DNA of 64,000 nucleotides from a phage. Each line of letters begins with the position of its first letter. Positions within the stretch are counted from its first letter, which is position 1. The position numbers were made by a program, and so were the translations under genes. Of this stretch, positions 33,999 to 39,761 are shown one piece after another. Under the pieces are notes generated by a model. The model ran no database searches, had not been told where the DNA came from, and saw nothing but the letters and a program-made list of their open reading frames with translations. Location of the stretch: sequence record PZ445523.1; one strand, given 5' to 3'.

Positions 33999-34472
33999 TT
34001 ATTTGAATGATTTAACGTACTGAATAGAACCTTTACTATTCACAAAGGCAATTTTACCATTTTTGTTATACATGGTAGCAGTACGCTGATAGCCATAAGT
34101 TTGTTTACCAGATTGATAACCAACTAATGCAAAATTATCTTCGCCCATTTTATTCTGCTTAGCGCGGATACGTTCATGACCGTGCGCCATAAGAACCTTA
34201 GCGTCGCCAGTTGCAATGGATCTACGAGTTTTTTCATCTTCAACTGTATTAACAAAGTCGTCAAATGAATCAAATTTAGCATGAGATTTATTATACAGTT
34301 TTCCATCTACTGCATAATTATATCCCTGTACATCCATCTCAACTTCTGTACCATCATCCAATACAGCAGTGATTTTTTGACCTTTTTTAAATTTCAAAAG
34401 ATCAGTAAAAGATTCAGCAATAATTTGAGAATTAATAGCTGCTTCAGTAATAAATTCTTGATATGTTTTCAT
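33999..34472 (-). CDS. Internal-protein-like head protein with capsid targeting sequence
   Basis: N-terminus MKTYQEFITEAA matches the T4 internal-protein capsid targeting sequence consensus; lysine-rich. Confidence 0.65.
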   Translation of the reverse strand: MKTYQEFITEAAINSQIIAESFTDLLKFKKGQKITAVLDDGTEVEMDVQGYNYAVDGKLYNKSHAKFDSFDDFVNTVEDEKTRRSIATGDAKVLMAHGHERIRAKQNKMGEDNFALVGYQSGKQTYGYQRTATMYNKNGKIAFVNSKGSIQYVKSFK

Positions 34473-34481
34473 ATGTTTCCT

Positions 34482-34898
34482 TTAAATGTAAATATTTTTA
34501 CCGTAATACTTGTACCAATGTGGTTTCATTAAAATTTTTTCATCAAGTCGTTGTTGACTCAATTTAATAGCTGATTTGCATGGATTATAATCATTTTTCC
34601 ATTCTACTGGAATATCGCTGATGTCAGGAACTTCAGTATCTTTTATACTGAACCCGCGTTTTAAGCATTCCGTTATAATGTCTGATTGACGCTTTCGCAA
34701 AAATTCTAACTTATCGTAAAAGAAAGTAACATGACCAGAACCTAAAATAAACTCGGAAGATATTTTAAAATCTTTAACCCGCTTACCATTTGCCACATGT
34801 TTACGAACTATACCAAAAACACGCGGCAATTCACGGTATTCTGCGATTAAATGTTGATCAGCAAGTTCAGATACTAAAGTCAAATTAATACGAGTCAT
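34482..34898 (-). CDS. denV: Endonuclease V (pyrimidine dimer DNA glycosylase)
   Basis: 138 aa; [17 protein letters not shown]...WYKYYGK, near-identical to T4 endo V as I recall it. Confidence 0.9.
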
Positions 34899-34923
34899 TT
34901 TATCCCTCCAAGTAACTGTGAAT

Positions 34924-34953
34924 ATACTATCACAATTCTAGGAGAAAGTAAAC
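34924..34953 (-). promoter_or_regulatory. Early promoter upstream of denV
   Basis: GTTTAC, 18 nt, TAGTAT. Confidence 0.6.
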
Positions 34954-34957
34954 AACT

Positions 34958-35452
34958 TTATAGATTTTTATACGCATCCCAAGTGCCAGTCCTAAACGTA
35001 GCGATGACTCGTTTTGCGCGATTAGGTGTTTGATTATACCATCTACTTTTAGCTAAGTTAACTGCTGCTTCATCCCAGCGTTTTTGTTGAAGCATACGTA
35101 AAGAATTAGTAAATCCTGCTACGCCGGTTTCTCCCATTTGGAAGACCATGTTAATCAATGCACAGCGGCGAACAGCATCAAGAGAATCATAAACTGGTTT
35201 TAATTTAGCATTTCTCAAAATTCCACGAACAGCAGCATCAACATCCTGATTAAAGAGTTTTTCAGCCTCATCTTTTGTAATTACACCATTGCAATTACGC
35301 CCAATAGCTTTATCTAATTCAGATTTAGCAACACTTAGTGATGGACTTTTAGTAAGCAAATGACCAATGCCAATAGTGTAATAACCTTCTGTATCTTTAT
35401 AGATTTTAAGTCTAAGACCTTCATCTATACGTAACATTTCAAATATATTCAT
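34958..35452 (-). CDS. e: Lysozyme (endolysin)
   Basis: 164 aa; about three substitutions relative to the T4 lysozyme sequence I recall. Confidence 0.95.
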
Positions 35453-35465
35453 AATACCTCCTAAG

Positions 35466-35486
35466 TATTTATAGAAGGTATTTATA
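35466..35486 (-). promoter_or_regulatory. Two tandem late promoters upstream of lysozyme e
   Basis: Minus strand carries TATAAATA twice (plus 35466-35473 and 35479-35486). Confidence 0.6.
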
Positions 35487-35488
35487 AA

Positions 35489-35944
35489 TTAAAAGAGGTT
35501 GTTCATTATTCGGTAAAGCGAAGGACCCATCACATATTGCCACTGAGTACGAGGAATAAGAGCAAAAGCGTCCATCTCTGGAATCATAACGCCATCTTTA
35601 TTTTCAAAATAAGACTCGCAGCGGCAATTTCTAAACATCTCATGCTCTACTGGAATCATATAATAAAATAACTGTAGGTCTTTATTACTAGAATATTTAA
35701 ATACACCTAGGTCTTCTAGAAGGTCTGGATTATAATTGCTAAAACCGGTCTCTTCTAAGCATTCTCTTTTTGCAGCTTCCAGTGCATTCAAATCAGAACT
35801 TTCTACACGCCCCTTTGGAATATCCCAGCGATGTGCCATCATTCCAGGCTTACGAGAACCAGTAACCCGACCCATAAATAAATCTTTATCTTCTGTCATA
35901 AAGATAATACCAGCTGATAATGTTTTCATTTTAATTTCCTGCAT
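35489..35944 (-). CDS. nudE: Nudix hydrolase
   Basis: 151 aa; Nudix box GRVESSDLNALEAAKRECLEETGF. Confidence 0.8.
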   Translation of the reverse strand: MQEIKMKTLSAGIIFMTEDKDLFMGRVTGSRKPGMMAHRWDIPKGRVESSDLNALEAAKRECLEETGFSNYNPDLLEDLGVFKYSSNKDLQLFYYMIPVEHEMFRNCRCESYFENKDGVMIPEMDAFALIPRTQWQYVMGPSLYRIMNNLF

Positions 35945-37753: not shown

Positions 37754-38347
37754 TTATTTCAGAGAATTAATGTATTCCTGAACATCGGCAGAGGTAGTTT
37801 CAACCCCAGAAATATTACCGTTAAAGGTTTCAACTCGAGCAAGAGTATCTTCAATATCAACCTTAGTCAGTGCTGCAATTTCAACTACATCATCAGCAGT
37901 ACTAATTCCAAGGGCATTCGCGGCGCGAGTTTCACGGATATATTCCAATTTAATTGCAAGTTCTTGGCGAGCATCATCTAGCTCAACTACTTTCTTGGCG
38001 ATTTCAATTCGCATTTCAGCATAACCATCAGCTTTAGTAGTCAACTGCTCAGCTGTTCGACGATATAGTAAACCGAGTTTAGCATGCATTGTTACATCTT
38101 GACCTTCGGAAAGAAGCTTGCGAATTTCACGCTCTTTTGATTCGGCCTGCTTATTCTTTTCGACAATAAGTTCACGAATACGCTTTTCTTCATTAATAGA
38201 TTTAACGGAAGCAGTTTTTAGATCTTTAATCTTATCAAGTAGTTTTGCTGCTGCAGCAGTATACTGTTCTTCAACAGATAGATTTTTAGCCATAGCAGAA
38301 CCAAGTTTAGTGCGAATAAACTCAACAATTTTCTTCAGTGTGTTCAT
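37754..38347 (-). CDS. Long coiled-coil protein, tentatively PspA/IM30-like
   Basis: 197 aa, almost entirely helical and charged with an N-terminal amphipathic segment; family assignment is tentative. Confidence 0.4.
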
Positions 38348-38403
38348 AGTATTTCCTTAGGTTGGTATAATTAGATAATATCACGTTTTAATAGATTGTA
38401 AAC

Positions 38404-38739
38404 TTATTCTTCGTCTAGCTCATCGATAAAGACGTCGATGGCCTCGATAACGGCATCATTGATAGCCAATAAAGTAAAATCATCGTCAGTGCCTTTAGAA
38501 GATTCTAAAGCATTGATATATGCTTGGTTAGCAAGTTCCCAAGCCTTTTTAAAATAAGGAGCTTCATCATCAGGACAAATATCCCGCACGCCTTCAAAGA
38601 TACGTTTGGCATAATCTAACACCCATTGTACAGGCATGTTTTGAGAACGTTCGTTAAACTCTTTAAATTCCTTAGATTCAAAAAGCTCTTCAGGATAATA
38701 ATTTCGATTACAAAAAGCTTTACTAAAGTTACGTTTCAT
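38404..38739 (-). CDS. Hypothetical protein
   Basis: 111-aa ORF. Confidence 0.4.
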   Translation of the reverse strand: MKRNFSKAFCNRNYYPEELFESKEFKEFNERSQNMPVQWVLDYAKRIFEGVRDICPDDEAPYFKKAWELANQAYINALESSKGTDDDFTLLAINDAVIEAIDVFIDELDEE

Positions 38740-38794
38740 AATGTTCTCCTCAAATTATGGGCTCATAATATCTCAATCATGAGCCTATGTAAAC

Positions 38795-39058
38795 TTATTT
38801 CATATTATTGAAATATTCTTCTGCGATTTCGTCGTTATCATGGTAAACTTTAGAAGACAGTTTAACATAACCTTCTGCCGTGAACATGTTAATCACAACC
38901 TTTACAGTATACCACTGACCATCTTCATTACCCATTACTGCGTAAGTTTCAAACATCGGATGATCAGGACCGATAACTTTAATATCATTCACTGTACGAC
39001 CGAAATCTTCTGAAACACATTTCATAAAGAAGTTGAACAGTTCGCCGTAATTATCCAT
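38795..39058 (-). CDS. Hypothetical protein
   Basis: Likely start MDNYGELF; upstream ORF-track extension is the translated promoter. Confidence 0.45.
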   Translation of the reverse strand: MDNYGELFNFFMKCVSEDFGRTVNDIKVIGPDHPMFETYAVMGNEDGQWYTVKVVINMFTAEGYVKLSSKVYHDNDEIAEEYFNNMK

Positions 39059-39101
39059 TTCATTCTCCAAGTTGTTTTCTGTATCAGTAGTTGATAGTTG
39101 T

Positions 39102-39131
39102 ATAGTACCATGGAAGGACAAGGATGTAAAC
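39102..39131 (-). promoter_or_regulatory. Early promoter
   Basis: GTTTAC, 18 nt, TACTAT. Confidence 0.6.
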
Positions 39132-39265
39132 AGTTTTGTGAAAAAATTTTTAAAAAGTTTTAGGGAATTCTAGGGTCAGGAGGGGCAATTAAAAGGTAGG
39201 ATAATATATTATAAAGGGTATAAACTAAATGATGCCTAGAGAGGCCCGGAAAGGCCTAGATACCA

Positions 39266-39292
39266 AAAAGCCCCAACCTTTCGGTCGGGGCT
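39266..39292 (-). terminator. Intrinsic terminator, copy 1 of a duplicated element
   Basis: 10-bp stem AGCCCCGACC / GGTTGGGGCT with GAAA loop and U-tract; identical to 39801-39827. Confidence 0.7.
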
Positions 39293-39299
39293 AAGAATG

Positions 39300-39761
39300 T
39301 TATTTGATTTGTTTAGCAGACCAAATGCGGTCTTTAATAATTTTTTGGATGTCTTCAACATACTCTAGGTCATGAGCATGTGGATTATCTTTGAAACTAT
39401 GAGCTCGCGCAAGTTTCTGGCCTTCGGTCTTAATTATCAAAAGTTCTTTAAGAATTGCTTCATATCTAGAGATAATTCCTTTAGCAATATTTTTTTCTTG
39501 TGCTGCTTTAGGGTCAGCCTTAGGAGCAGGTTTACCAGAAGGTTTTTCGAAAGCCGCACCAGTAGCAACCAGGCTTTTCCAGGCGGTGGTAACATAGTTA
39601 CCCACAAAGCCTTCAGCTCTCATATCGTCATAGAACTTGTACCGAGATTCGTCAGAAGCATCTTTATAAGAATATTTACCAGCTTTAATAGCAGCAGTTG
39701 CTACAGCGCGAACATCTGAAGCGGATGCTTCGGTCATTAAAAATTGAGCATAAGTTTTCAT
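39300..39761 (-). CDS. Internal-protein-like head protein with capsid targeting sequence
   Basis: N-terminus MKTYAQFLMTEA; late promoter TATAAATA 25 nt upstream; flanked by identical terminator hairpins. Confidence 0.6.
   Translation of the reverse strand: MKTYAQFLMTEASASDVRAVATAAIKAGKYSYKDASDESRYKFYDDMRAEGFVGNYVTTAWKSLVATGAAFEKPSGKPAPKADPKAAQEKNIAKGIISRYEAILKELLIIKTEGQKLARAHSFKDNPHAHDLEYVEDIQKIIKDRIWSAKQIK

What the first reader, a model, noticed from the sequence alone, without database searches (positions are those of the whole stretch)
33999..39761. Two further CTS-bearing genes, one under a late promoter and bracketed by identical terminators
The ORFs at 33999-34472 (MKTYQEFITEAA) and 39300-39761 (MKTYAQFLMTEA) also carry the internal-protein targeting sequence, giving four CTS genes in this window. 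The second has a minus-strand TATAAATA late promoter (39790-39797) and lies between two identical 27-nt terminator hairpins (39266-39292 and 39801-39827). Identical flanking hairpins could both insulate transcription and act as recombination sites for exchanging the enclosed gene.
Basis: seen in the sequence. Interest (0 to 1): 0.45.

Follow-up and report, generated by a model that had tools for sequence, protein, structure and literature searches.

The report
Terminator-bounded internal-protein gene cassette
In this T4-like phage, a small late gene whose product probably rides inside the capsid sits between two copies of one transcription terminator. Related phages show that this repeat marks where the gene module is lost, duplicated or swapped. 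This adds an apparently overlooked third site for injected 'internal protein' genes.

Summary
Both ORFs exist on the minus strand. The repeat is exact over 32 nt (39264-39295 = 39799-39830) and 35/36 over 36 nt. TATAAATA lies at 39790-39797.

Gene A (33999-34472) is already known: it is 100% identical to Yersinia phage PST IpIV.

Gene B (39300-39761) belongs to PHROG 2280 ('unknown function'). It is present in about 500 T4-like genomes and was called 'hypothetical' in every record sampled. It lies between e.8 and rnaC, outside the two published internal-protein loci.

T4 has one copy of the same hairpin there and no gene. Other phages carry B, a paralogue B2, both, or B3, and every module joins right after the hairpin's T-run. 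Against phage SA20RB, divergence jumps from 0 differences in the upstream hairpin to 50% in the promoter spacer. Synonymous divergence is 1.7 in the 5' half of B and 0.04 in the 3' half. So the upstream hairpin is a recombination boundary.

Klebsiella and Yersinia relatives keep the same order: terminator, TATAAATA, CTS-like leader.

Packaging of B, termination and late transcription are inferred, not shown. B is a new member of a known kind (Repoila-type internal-protein shuffling, PeSL-like cassettes). Interest is moderate.

The parts
33999..34472 (-). Gene A: internal protein IpIV (157 aa). The leader is MKTYQEFITE|A. The predicted mature protein is 16.5 kDa with pI 9.1.
   Evidence: ORF. 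It is 100% identical to PST IpIV 'internal head protein'. It matches PHROG 3155 'internal virion protein' at 6e-102 and Pfam DUF7412. pI.
34473..34500 (-). Conserved pre-ip block (AATATTTACATTTAAAGGAAACAT before the ATG). It overlaps the 3' end of denV and is the same block that precedes T4 ipII/ipIII and PST ipIV.
   Evidence: Sequence comparison. No TATAAATA lies nearby; the nearest late promoters are those of gene e at 35466-35486.
39260..39295 (-). Downstream copy of the 36-nt repeat: an intrinsic-terminator hairpin (AGCCCCGACC GAAA GGTTGGGGCT, 39269-39292), its T-run, and GGTAT. It ends the gene B transcript and shields the e.8 early promoter.
39300..39761 (-). Gene B: a 153-aa CTS-bearing protein of PHROG 2280. 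The predicted mature protein is 15.7 kDa with pI 9.4. It is all-helical with an invariant KPAPKADPKAAQEK linker.
   Evidence: dN/dS is 0.05-0.18 against four homologues. 512 phage records encode a homologue, one copy each.
39729..39761 (-). Leader codons 1-11 (MKTYAQFLMTE). Tyr4 and Phe7, the targeting positions in IPIII, are kept. Leu8 is kept, but the Glu is at position 11 instead of 10.
   Evidence: The roles of CTS residues 4, 7, 8 and 10 and the L/I-X-E rule come from PMC9026906. Residues 1-11 have pLDDT below 50 in the model.
39769..39772 (-). Shine-Dalgarno AGGA, 7 nt before the ATG.
   Evidence: Read from the sequence.
39790..39797 (-). T4-type late promoter TATAAATA, starting 2 nt after the upstream terminator's T-run.
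   Evidence: It is conserved at the same place in all B cassettes examined, in B3 of a Mosigvirus, and in the Klebsiella and Yersinia phage homologues.
39795..39830 (-). Upstream copy of the 36-nt repeat (hairpin 39804-39827). It is the terminator of the tRNA-rnaD-rnaC operon and is the only copy present in T4.
   Evidence: T4 comparison. There are zero differences from SA20RB, G8 and AR1 in this copy, while the next 38 nt differ by 47-50% in SA20RB and AR1.
39831..40140 (-). 3' trailer plus the rnaC (about 39878-40016) and rnaD (about 40022-40140) small stable RNA genes. This is the conserved right flank of the slot.
   Evidence: Homology to the annotated rnaC/rnaD of RB27 and T4.
39102..39130 (-). 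Early-promoter-like site (TTTACA-17-TACTAT with TG) for e.8 (38795-39058), in the conserved left flank of the slot.
   Evidence: An equivalent site is annotated as a T4 early promoter in SA20RB.

Best explanation
The window comes from a Tequatrovirus (T4-like phage).

Gene A is the known internal protein IpIV, in a rearranged version of the ipII/ipIII locus (vs.8-ipIV-denV-e).

Gene B is a self-contained late-expression module placed directly behind the terminator of the tRNA/rnaD/rnaC operon:
- The upstream hairpin stops early and middle transcripts.
- Two nucleotides after its T-run, a TATAAATA late promoter starts a short transcript.
- That transcript encodes a small basic protein with a capsid-targeting-type leader.
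- A second copy of the same hairpin ends the transcript before the early promoter of e.8.

The protein would thus be made only when proheads assemble. It is most likely carried into the scaffold core by its leader and injected with the DNA. By analogy with Ip1-3, it probably acts against a host defence.

The 32-36 nt direct repeat (hairpin + T-run + GGTAT) is the module boundary. The phage's homologous or short-homology recombination between copies deletes the module (the T4/T2 state, one hairpin), duplicates segments (BYEP02), and joins different modules (B, B2, B3) in register. The upstream copy also serves as one crossover point when divergent B alleles are exchanged; the other crossover is often in the invariant mid-gene linker.

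Shown here: sequence anatomy, identity of A, distribution, junctions, mosaic breakpoints, purifying selection. Inferred: termination, late transcription, packaging and cleavage, anti-defence role, recombination mechanism.
For: Identity of the phage and of gene A.

Anatomy of the B module.

Empty site: T4 has exactly one hairpin between e.8 and rnaC, and the window equals T4 plus 535 bp with the hairpin repeated.

Junction table (17 genomes other than the window): every boundary falls after GGGGCTTTTT, and all four presence/absence combinations of B and B2 occur. B3 occupies the slot in a Mosigvirus. BYEP02 has an 81-bp tandem duplication that includes the hairpin.

Census:
- The hairpin is in 699 phage records at 1175 places.
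- The 'B 3' end-hairpin-e.8 flank' junction is in 352 records, and the 'B 3' end-hairpin-B2 leader' junction in 129.

Mosaicism:
- Window versus SA20RB: rnaC side 1.6%, upstream hairpin 0 differences, promoter spacer 50%. dS is 1.73 for codons 1-75 and 0.04 for codons 76 to the end.
- Window versus AR1: both hairpins identical, B 21% divergent.
- Trees of the two flanks disagree, and slot states are scattered on them.

Coding: dN/dS 0.05-0.18.

Leader:
- Tyr4, Phe7 and Leu8 are kept. Homologues have canonical FL-x-E leaders.
- The mature protein is basic, like the other three CTS proteins in the window.

Conservation across genera: Klebsiella phage Mineola has GCCCCGTCttcgGACGGGGCTTTTT-AG-TATAAATA followed by MKFKEFLAE|A. 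Yersinia phage MHG19 has a hairpin, then TATAAATA, then MLNFNEFLAE|S.

Literature:
- T4 recombines readily at 6-10-bp microhomologies (PMC9391042).
- Ip1-3 each inhibit a distinct GmrSD enzyme (PMC12373910).
Against: - No virion proteomics, N-terminal sequencing or transcript mapping for B was found.
- The allele in this window has L-M-T-E rather than the canonical L/I-X-E. Position 10 is Thr, not Glu, so cleavage by gp21 is uncertain.
- The hairpin copies are not identical in every genome: G8, SA20RB and RB27 differ by 1 nt, and phiE142 by 5. Homogenisation is therefore incomplete.
- In other genera the two terminators are unrelated, so a repeated hairpin is not needed for the module to work.
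- The downstream breakpoint of allele exchange is usually not at the downstream hairpin.
- The sharp divergence step could partly reflect strong constraint on the terminator and the rnaC side. However, the 40-fold dS difference within B cannot be explained that way.
- The flank trees have no support values and include only 14-18 genomes.
Confidence: 0.68

Rival explanations
1. Passive relic. One ancient insertion or tandem duplication copied the tRNA-operon terminator together with gene B. The two copies stay alike only because each is selected as a terminator. They have no special role in recombination, and T4-like empty sites are ordinary deletions that could have happened anywhere.
For: - The hairpin is strongly conserved as a single-copy terminator in genomes without B (T4, T2, PST).
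- The copies differ by 1-5 nt in several genomes.
- Other genera use two unrelated terminators around the homologous gene.
- T4 recombination acts on any short homology (PMC9391042).
Against: - Deletion, duplication and module junctions all fall in the same register, right after the T-run.
- All four B/B2 combinations exist, and the states are scattered over incongruent flank trees.
- Divergence steps from 0 to about 50% exactly at the upstream copy.
- A perfect 32-36-nt direct repeat is a far better substrate than the 6-10-bp microhomologies that already drive T4 deletions.
Confidence: 0.2
2. Gene B is not an internal protein. It would be a late cytoplasmic or assembly-related protein. Its N-terminus resembles the CTS only because 5' gene segments (ribosome-binding site plus first codons) are shared by recombination among small late genes. 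It would be neither packaged nor cleaved.
For: - PHROG 2280 is 'unknown function', and every sampled record calls it hypothetical.
- No proteomic evidence was found.
- The window allele lacks a canonical L/I-X-E at positions 8-10.
- The literature recognises only two internal-protein loci (PMC2839356; PMC12373910).
- No fold match was found.
Against: - The leader pattern (aromatic at position 4, Phe 7, Leu 8, Glu 10, then Ala/Ser/Thr/Gln) is kept in B, B', B2, B3 and in homologues from other genera, although the mature parts are unalignable or only 50-60% identical.
- Only 10 leader residues suffice to package foreign proteins in T4 (PMC9026906).
- The late promoter is conserved.
- The mature protein is small and basic, like the known internal proteins.
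- The leader is predicted to be disordered.
Confidence: 0.25
3. Homing-endonuclease hitch-hiking. The polymorphism and flank mosaicism of the slot are driven mainly by SegB (40222-40887). SegB cuts in the tRNA region, and its repair co-converts neighbouring DNA. The hairpins would then be incidental.
For: - segB lies about 400 bp from the upstream hairpin in this window.
- SegB-initiated recombination and segmental amplification in the tRNA region of T6 are documented (PMC13096335).
- Divergence on the right flank is patchy. For example, G8 and RB27 each show 13 differences in one 50-nt bin near rnaD.
Against: - Co-conversion tracts end at variable points and would not place every junction after the same T-run.
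- Genomes without segB in this position (RB27) show the same cassette structure.
- It does not explain the duplicated hairpin.
Confidence: 0.1

Closest known systems
T-even internal proteins (IPI, IPII, IPIII of T4; IpIV-IpVI of phage PST) and their two polymorphic loci (Repoila et al. 1994, as cited in PMC2839356 and PMC12373910)
   Same: - Small basic proteins with an MKT(Y/F)xEF(I/L)xE leader and highly polymorphic gene content.
- Gene A is IpIV itself (100% identity).
- Gene B shares the leader logic, its size and charge, and presence/absence polymorphism with conserved flanking blocks.
   Different: - Gene B lies in neither published locus (57B-tRNA.4, denV-e) but between e.8 and rnaC.
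- Its flanking blocks are a GC-rich intrinsic terminator plus a late promoter, not the early-promoter/CTS-codon blocks seen at the ipI locus of this same window (109-nt repeats).
- Packaging is unproven.
- The family (PHROG 2280) is unnamed.
PeSL cassettes (promoter-early stem-loop) of RB49/phi1 and other T4-like phages (Arbiol et al. 2010, PMC2839356; Comeau et al. 2014, PMC4122927)
   Same: - A composite terminator-promoter motif flanks a small accessory gene.
- A close relative has a single motif in place of motif-gene-motif.
- The proposed mechanism is recombination between the flanking motifs, with transcriptional insulation of the module.
   Different: - The promoter is a T4 late promoter (TATAAATA), not a sigma-70-like early one.
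- The repeat is one specific terminator present 1-3 times per genome, not a dispersed family of about 100-bp motifs.
- Mini-circles were not tested.
Morons of lambdoid phages (a gene with its own promoter and terminator inserted between two genes)
   Same: An autonomous promoter-gene-terminator unit inserted between conserved neighbours, absent from close relatives.
   Different: - It is in a strictly lytic phage, is expressed late, and has the same orientation as its neighbours.
- Its boundaries are a repeated sequence that can itself mediate gain and loss.
Microhomology-mediated deletions and amplifications in T4 (Srikant et al. 2022, PMC9391042)
   Same: Deletion or duplication between short direct repeats, leaving one copy at the junction.
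   Different: - The repeat here is 32-36 nt rather than 6-10 nt.
- It is a functional terminator.
- It recurs as a boundary across hundreds of natural genomes.

Membership tests
T4-type internal (capsid-targeted) proteins | N-terminal capsid targeting sequence resembling MKTYQEFIAE, with the targeting residues at positions 4 and 7 | tested here: met
   A: MKTYQEFITE, 9 of 10 identical to IPII/IPIII. B: MKTYAQFLMT, with Tyr4 and Phe7 kept. The residue roles come from PMC9026906.
T4-type internal (capsid-targeted) proteins | gp21 cleavage motif L/I-X-E at the end of the leader (positions 8-10) | tested here: inconclusive
   - A: I-T-E|A, met.
- B in this window: L-M-T-E|A, so Glu is at 11 and position 10 is Thr.
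- Most homologues have FLNE...LNE|A, FLTE|Q, FLTE|A or FLAE|T.
- Cleavage itself is not testable here.
T4-type internal (capsid-targeted) proteins | Physical presence in the virion and injection with the DNA | not testable with these tools
   No proteomic report was found for B or its homologues. For A the claim rests on the annotation of PST IpIV.
T4-type internal (capsid-targeted) proteins | Gene located in one of the two described internal-protein loci (57B-tRNA.4, or the denV-e region) | tested here: not met
   A is in the denV-e region (vs.8-ipIV-denV-e), so A meets this feature. B lies between e.8 and rnaC, outside both loci. PMC2839356 states that internal-protein genes are absent elsewhere.
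T4-type internal (capsid-targeted) proteins | Sequence identity to a named internal protein | tested here: met
   A is 100% identical to PST IpIV. B matches no named internal-protein family; its only match is PHROG 2280 'unknown function'.
Intrinsic (rho-independent) terminator | GC-rich stem-loop immediately followed by a T/U run on the transcribed strand | tested here: met
   10-bp stem (7 GC pairs), GAAA loop, then TTTTT; -20.5 kcal/mol, z = -3.7. The same element is annotated as a terminator in G8, G29, SA20RB and fPS-2. Termination activity was not tested.
T4 late promoter | TATAAATA at -10, at a suitable distance upstream of a late gene | tested here: met
   39790-39797, 28 nt before the ATG. 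The exact TATAAATA is at the same place in the Tequatrovirus B cassettes, B3, Mineola and MHG19. B' cassettes have AATAAATA (one mismatch). gp55/gp33-dependent initiation is not testable here.
PeSL (promoter-early stem-loop) cassette | Sigma-70-like early promoter combined with a stem-loop | tested here: not met
   The promoter next to the hairpin is a late promoter. No sigma-70-type match lies next to either hairpin on the minus strand; the nearest is at 39102-39130.
PeSL (promoter-early stem-loop) cassette | The motif flanks an accessory ORF on both sides, and close relatives carry a single motif instead | tested here: met
   Window versus T4, and G29/ZN18 versus G4498.
PeSL (promoter-early stem-loop) cassette | Excised mini-circles detectable in lysates | not testable with these tools
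   Needs inverse PCR on phage DNA.

The most novel reading that the evidence does not exclude
The e.8-rnaC interval is a third, so far unrecognised internal-protein locus of Tevenvirinae. It houses a modular family (PHROG 2280: B, B', B2, B3 and homologues in Klebsiella and Yersinia phages) of late-expressed, capsid-packaged, injected proteins that counter host defences. Their N- and C-terminal domains and whole modules are exchanged at the tRNA-operon terminator and at an invariant linker. T4 and T2 happen to have lost the module, which would explain why it was never studied.
Probability: 0.5. Interest if true: 0.6.

Novelty: new member of a known kind. Interest (0 to 1): 0.45.

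Why it matters
All three T4 internal proteins now have known targets, each a distinct GmrSD type IV restriction enzyme (PMC12373910). The authors of that work expect the remaining proteins of 'the two Ip loci' to be similar weapons.

A third locus would change that picture. It is present in about 500 sequenced T4-like phages, is absent from T4 and T2, and carries a conserved late promoter and CTS-type leader. If gene B is packaged, this gives:
- a new set of candidate injected anti-defence proteins;
- a correction to genome annotation, since the gene is currently called 'hypothetical' in every record sampled;
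- a natural example of a functional terminator that also marks a module boundary for gene gain, loss and allele exchange.

The slot is also a ready-made, insulated, late-expressed insertion site for engineering capsid-delivered cargo.

Tried and rejected
- Function of B by similarity: Pfam found nothing. A PDB profile search gave nothing below E = 0.47. The AlphaFold model is only moderate (pLDDT 73, pTM 0.44). Foldseek against BFVD returned only the protein's own family, and against PDB nothing with E <= 0.001.
- Rfam: only tRNAs in 38500-42500; there is no family for the hairpin or for rnaC/rnaD.
- IMG/VR scan for the hairpin: only 5 contigs, so the INPHARED phage collection was used instead.
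- Literature: Repoila 1994 and Miller 2003 are not held. Searches for RB32ORF133c and RB69ORF149c, and for virion proteomics, found nothing. The fPS-2 paper has no proteome.
- Junction-probe census: the counts for the 'empty' and 'B2-only' probes cannot be used, because the tool joins pieces up to about 555 nt apart. B-carrying genomes therefore also score as full-length. Only the two probes that include the 3' end of B were kept.
- Concerted evolution of the two copies: the evidence is mixed. RB27 and the Mosigvirus copies share variants, but the GAAA-to-AAAA loop change is confined to downstream copies. It is not used as a main argument.
- Hairpin as a dispersed repeat: rejected. There are only two copies in the window, even with 3 mismatches.

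Full report
**1. What the window is**

The interval belongs to a T4-like phage (Tequatrovirus). The stretch 39100-40140 is 98% identical to phages vB_Eco_ZCEC15 and JK1 and about 97% identical to RB27, and 745 phage records match it.

All genes here are on the minus strand. By homology to the annotated T4 and RB27 records, the order by increasing coordinate is:
- vs.8 (33306-33893)
- gene A (33999-34472)
- denV (34482-34898)
- e lysozyme (34958-35452)
- nudE, then e.2 to e.8 (e.8 at 38795-39058)
- gene B (39300-39761)
- rnaC/rnaD (about 39878-40140)
- tRNA-Arg, segB (40222-40887), then seven more tRNAs
- tRNA.2-4
- two further CTS genes (42547-42855, 42928-43185)
- 57B

**2.

- Both ORFs are as described, and four ORFs in the window start with MKT[YF]-type leaders.
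The repeat is 35/36 over 36 nt. The 31-mer has exactly two copies in the window and none in shuffles.
- On the minus strand each copy is a 10-bp GC-rich stem with a GAAA loop followed by five T (-20.5 kcal/mol, z = -3.7). These are the only two minus-strand terminator-like sites in 33800-40300.
- TATAAATA lies at 39790-39797. It starts two nucleotides after the upstream T-run and ends 28 nt before the ATG, with an AGGA Shine-Dalgarno.
- The 8-mer alone is not enriched in the window (12 found, 11.1 expected). Its credibility comes from its position and conservation (sections 4 and 6).

**3. Gene A is already known**

- It is 100% identical to the protein annotated as IpIV 'internal head protein' in Yersinia phage PST.
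- It matches PHROG 3155 'internal virion protein' and Pfam DUF7412.
- It is annotated as an internal virion or head protein in wV7, T2, RB18 and others.
- Its leader, MKTYQEFITE|A, is canonical.
- There is no late promoter next to it. It follows denV by 9 nt, behind the block AATATTTACATTTAAAGGAAACAT that also precedes T4 ipII/ipIII and PST ipIV. That block is here fused to the end of denV.
- Expression would therefore come from the denV early promoter and from read-through from the late promoters of e (35466-35486). This is inference.
- The gene order differs among phages: vs.8-ipIV-denV-e here, vs.8-denV-ipII-ipIII-e in T4, and vs.8-ipIV-ipIII-e in PST. This is the kind of locus polymorphism already attributed to Repoila et al. 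1994 (PMC2839356).

**4. Gene B is the interesting part**

- It matches only PHROG 2280, 'unknown function'.
- tblastn finds one copy in each of 512 phage records, 470 of them full length. All 60 sampled annotations read 'hypothetical protein', 'phage protein' or nothing.
- The big protein database holds only 10 clusters, all unnamed.
- It is a real gene: dN/dS is 0.05-0.18 against four homologues.
- The predicted mature protein is 15.7 kDa with pI 9.4, similar to the other three CTS proteins of the window.
- The model is all-helical, with a disordered leader and no recognisable fold.

The leader keeps Tyr4 and Phe7. In IPIII these are the residues that matter for targeting, whereas positions 8 and 10 matter for processing (PMC9026906). 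This allele has Leu8 but Thr10 and Glu11 (L-M-T-E). The commoner 157-aa allele has FLNE...LNE|A, and other relatives have FLTE|Q, FLTE|A or FLAE|T. So packaging is plausible, while cleavage of this particular allele is uncertain.

The gene lies outside the two loci that the literature recognises. [quoted passage not shown]

**5. The hairpins are module boundaries**

T4 has one copy of the same hairpin between e.8 and rnaC and no gene. On the minus strand T4 reads ...GCAACGG-TTAGCCCCGACCGAAAGGTTGGGGCTTTTT-GGTATCTAAGCC.... The window has the same left and right contexts, separated by hairpin-TATAAATA-B-hairpin, a 535-bp difference.

Across 17 further genomes, every junction lies right after GGGGCTTTTT:

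| State of the slot | Genomes |
|---|---|
| Empty | T4 (this table); PST, T2, RB3 and RB55 in other comparisons |
| B only | window, RB27, G8, SA20RB, AR1 |
| B2 only | ESh36, G4498, ESh27 |
| B then B2, with a hairpin between | Nami, ZN18, G29 |
| B' only (154 aa, one recognisable hairpin) | JK45, moha |
| B' then B2 | PhAPEC2, phiE142 |
| B3 | LF82-7 (Mosigvirus) |
| Extra 81-bp tandem duplication of the rnaC tail plus hairpin | BYEP02 |

- B2 is a 187-aa paralogue with its own, different terminator that also ends in GGGCTTTTT.
- B3 is 208 aa, has the leader MYTFNEFLAE|TEVITE|A, and has TATAAATA abutting the hairpin.
- B, B', B2 and B3 all hit PHROG 2280.
- In several genomes the repeat extends to GGTAT, so the first bases of the late-promoter region and of the e.8-side flank are part of it.

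Frequencies:
- The hairpin occurs in 699 records at 1175 places.
- The junction 'B 3' end-hairpin-e.8 flank' is in 352 records, and 'B 3' end-hairpin-B2 leader' in 129.
- A spread sample of 60 of 745 records gave 28 B only, 9 B+B2, 7 empty, 2 B2 only and 14 other or unresolved.
- The collection contains duplicate RefSeq/GenBank records, so these are rough proportions.

**6. Evidence for exchange, not just presence or absence**

Window versus SA20RB:
- The rnaC side differs by 1.6%.
- The upstream hairpin has 0 differences.
- The 38-nt promoter/RBS spacer differs by 50%, although TATAAATA and AGGA are kept.
- The 5' half of B is saturated (dS 1.73).
- The 3' half is almost identical (dS 0.04), with the switch at the invariant KPAPKADPKAAQEK linker.

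Window versus AR1: both hairpins are identical and the rnaC side differs by 1.6%, but B differs by 21% over nearly its whole length.

Such a 40-fold step in synonymous divergence inside one gene cannot come from selection. It marks recombination between deeply diverged alleles, with one breakpoint at the upstream hairpin.

Neighbour-joining trees of the two flanks disagree with each other. Slot states are scattered on them; for example, T4 (empty) sits among B-carrying phages, and G4498 (B2) sits next to G29/ZN18 (B+B2). These trees are small and unsupported, so they are only suggestive.

The family is also domain-mosaic. The N-domain of B is 50-60% identical to that of the Klebsiella (Mineola) and Yersinia (MHG19) phage homologues. 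Their C-domain instead resembles that of B3.

**7. The architecture is older than the repeat**

- In Mineola (Jiaodavirus) the homologue follows the tRNA cluster as GCCCCGTC-TTCG-GACGGGGC-TTTTT-AG-TATAAATA, then MKFKEFLAE|A.
- In MHG19 a different hairpin precedes TATAAATA and MLNFNEFLAE|S.
- So 'tRNA-operon terminator, late promoter, CTS-type leader' is conserved across genera. This is the best argument for late expression and for a functional leader.
- Their downstream terminators are unrelated to the upstream ones. The identical pair was seen only in Tequatrovirus, Mosigvirus and phiE142 (classified as Carettavirus).

A simple history (inference) is as follows. The ancestral arrangement was hairpin-B-type gene-own terminator, as B2 still shows. 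A paralogous module was then inserted or duplicated together with a copy of the hairpin. Later losses occurred between the 32-36-nt repeats (removing B) or between the shared GGGCTTTTT ends (removing B2).

T4 is known to delete and amplify between 6-10-bp microhomologies (PMC9391042). PeSL motifs are proposed to act in the same way (PMC2839356).

**8. How it most likely works**

- The upstream hairpin ends early and middle transcription of the tRNA/rnaD/rnaC operon. I recall from the older T4 literature that a terminator follows species 1 RNA, but I did not verify this here.
- The late promoter immediately after it fires only in the late period.
- The downstream copy prevents late transcripts from entering e.8, which has its own early-type promoter (39102-39130).
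- B is thus made when proheads assemble. It is carried in by its leader and injected. By analogy with Ip1-3, it probably disarms a host defence.

All of these steps are inferred from sequence and analogy.

**9. Comparison with what is known, and verdict**

- The idea that conserved flanking motifs shuffle internal-protein genes dates from 1994, and PeSLs generalise it.
- At the ipI locus of this same window, the classical blocks are visible as 109-nt repeats that include the CTS codons and an early-type promoter.
- What appears new is the location (a third locus), the unannotated protein family, and the use of a strong intrinsic terminator plus late promoter as the repeated boundary.
- A terminator abutting TATAAATA also occurs once more in the window (about 55890-55925, plus strand), so the composite itself is not unique.

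Gene A is already known. Gene B and its cassette are a new member of a known kind. Interest is moderate.

Noticed in passing
window 42835-42943 and 43165-43273: A 109-nt direct repeat (88% identical) brackets the 85-aa CTS gene 42928-43185, which is 100% identical to PST IpV. Each copy holds the first codons of a CTS gene plus an upstream early-promoter-like block. A third, shorter copy of the block lies at 42473-42519. These look like the conserved blocks attributed to Repoila et al. 1994.
   Followed up: partly
window 34473-34500: The 3' end of denV is fused to the conserved block (AATATTTACATTTAAAGGAAACAT) that precedes T4 ipII/ipIII and PST ipIV. This gives denV a different C-terminus from T4 (...GKNIYI). 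Locus order is vs.8-ipIV-denV-e here, vs.8-denV-ipII-ipIII-e in T4, and vs.8-ipIV-ipIII-e in PST.
   Followed up: partly
window 33856-33957: A 33-aa ORF matches the N-terminus of T4's 219-aa vs.8 (MRDSRQPVIRSS...) but is out of frame with the 195-aa vs.8 ORF (33306-33893). Either there is a frameshift relative to T4, or T4's annotation is over-extended; PST annotates the short form.
   Followed up: no
window about 55890-55925, plus strand: A second terminator-plus-late-promoter composite: GGGAGCCCatggGCTCCC, then TTTTTCTT, then TATAAATA (hairpin -16.2 kcal/mol). It shows that a late promoter abutting a terminator is a recurring design in this genome.
   Followed up: no
L006 (phage BYEP02) 1321-1432: An 81-bp tandem duplication of the rnaC 3' trailer plus hairpin gives three hairpin copies. 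The middle copy carries the AGCC stem variant also seen in RB27.
   Followed up: partly
L022 (Mosigvirus mar006P2) 1503-1533: A closely related hairpin (GCCCCTTCC GAAA GGTCGGGGC plus T-run) lies between rI and mobD.2a, far from the tRNA region. The terminator sequence is therefore reused elsewhere in some genomes.
   Followed up: no
L012 (phage G29) 689-1251: The B2 gene is split into two ORFs (54 aa and 133 aa), probably by a frameshift. This would be a decaying copy of the second module.
   Followed up: no
window 39238-39258: A weaker second hairpin (AGGCC-cggaaa-GGCCT) lies just downstream, in the direction of transcription, of the downstream terminator copy. It is present in degenerate form in T4.
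   Followed up: no
window 40929-41002: ARAGORN calls this tRNA-Met (CAU). T4 annotates the tRNA that follows segB in the same gene order as tRNA-Ile, so it is probably a CAU-anticodon isoleucine tRNA.
   Followed up: no
L024 (Klebsiella phage Mineola) 1786-2319; L025 (Yersinia phage MHG19) 1801-2343; L016 (LF82-7) 1832-2458: The PHROG 2280 family is domain-mosaic. The Mineola and MHG19 proteins combine a B-like N-domain with a C-domain that shares the RDTP(D/E)LY region with B3.
   Followed up: partly
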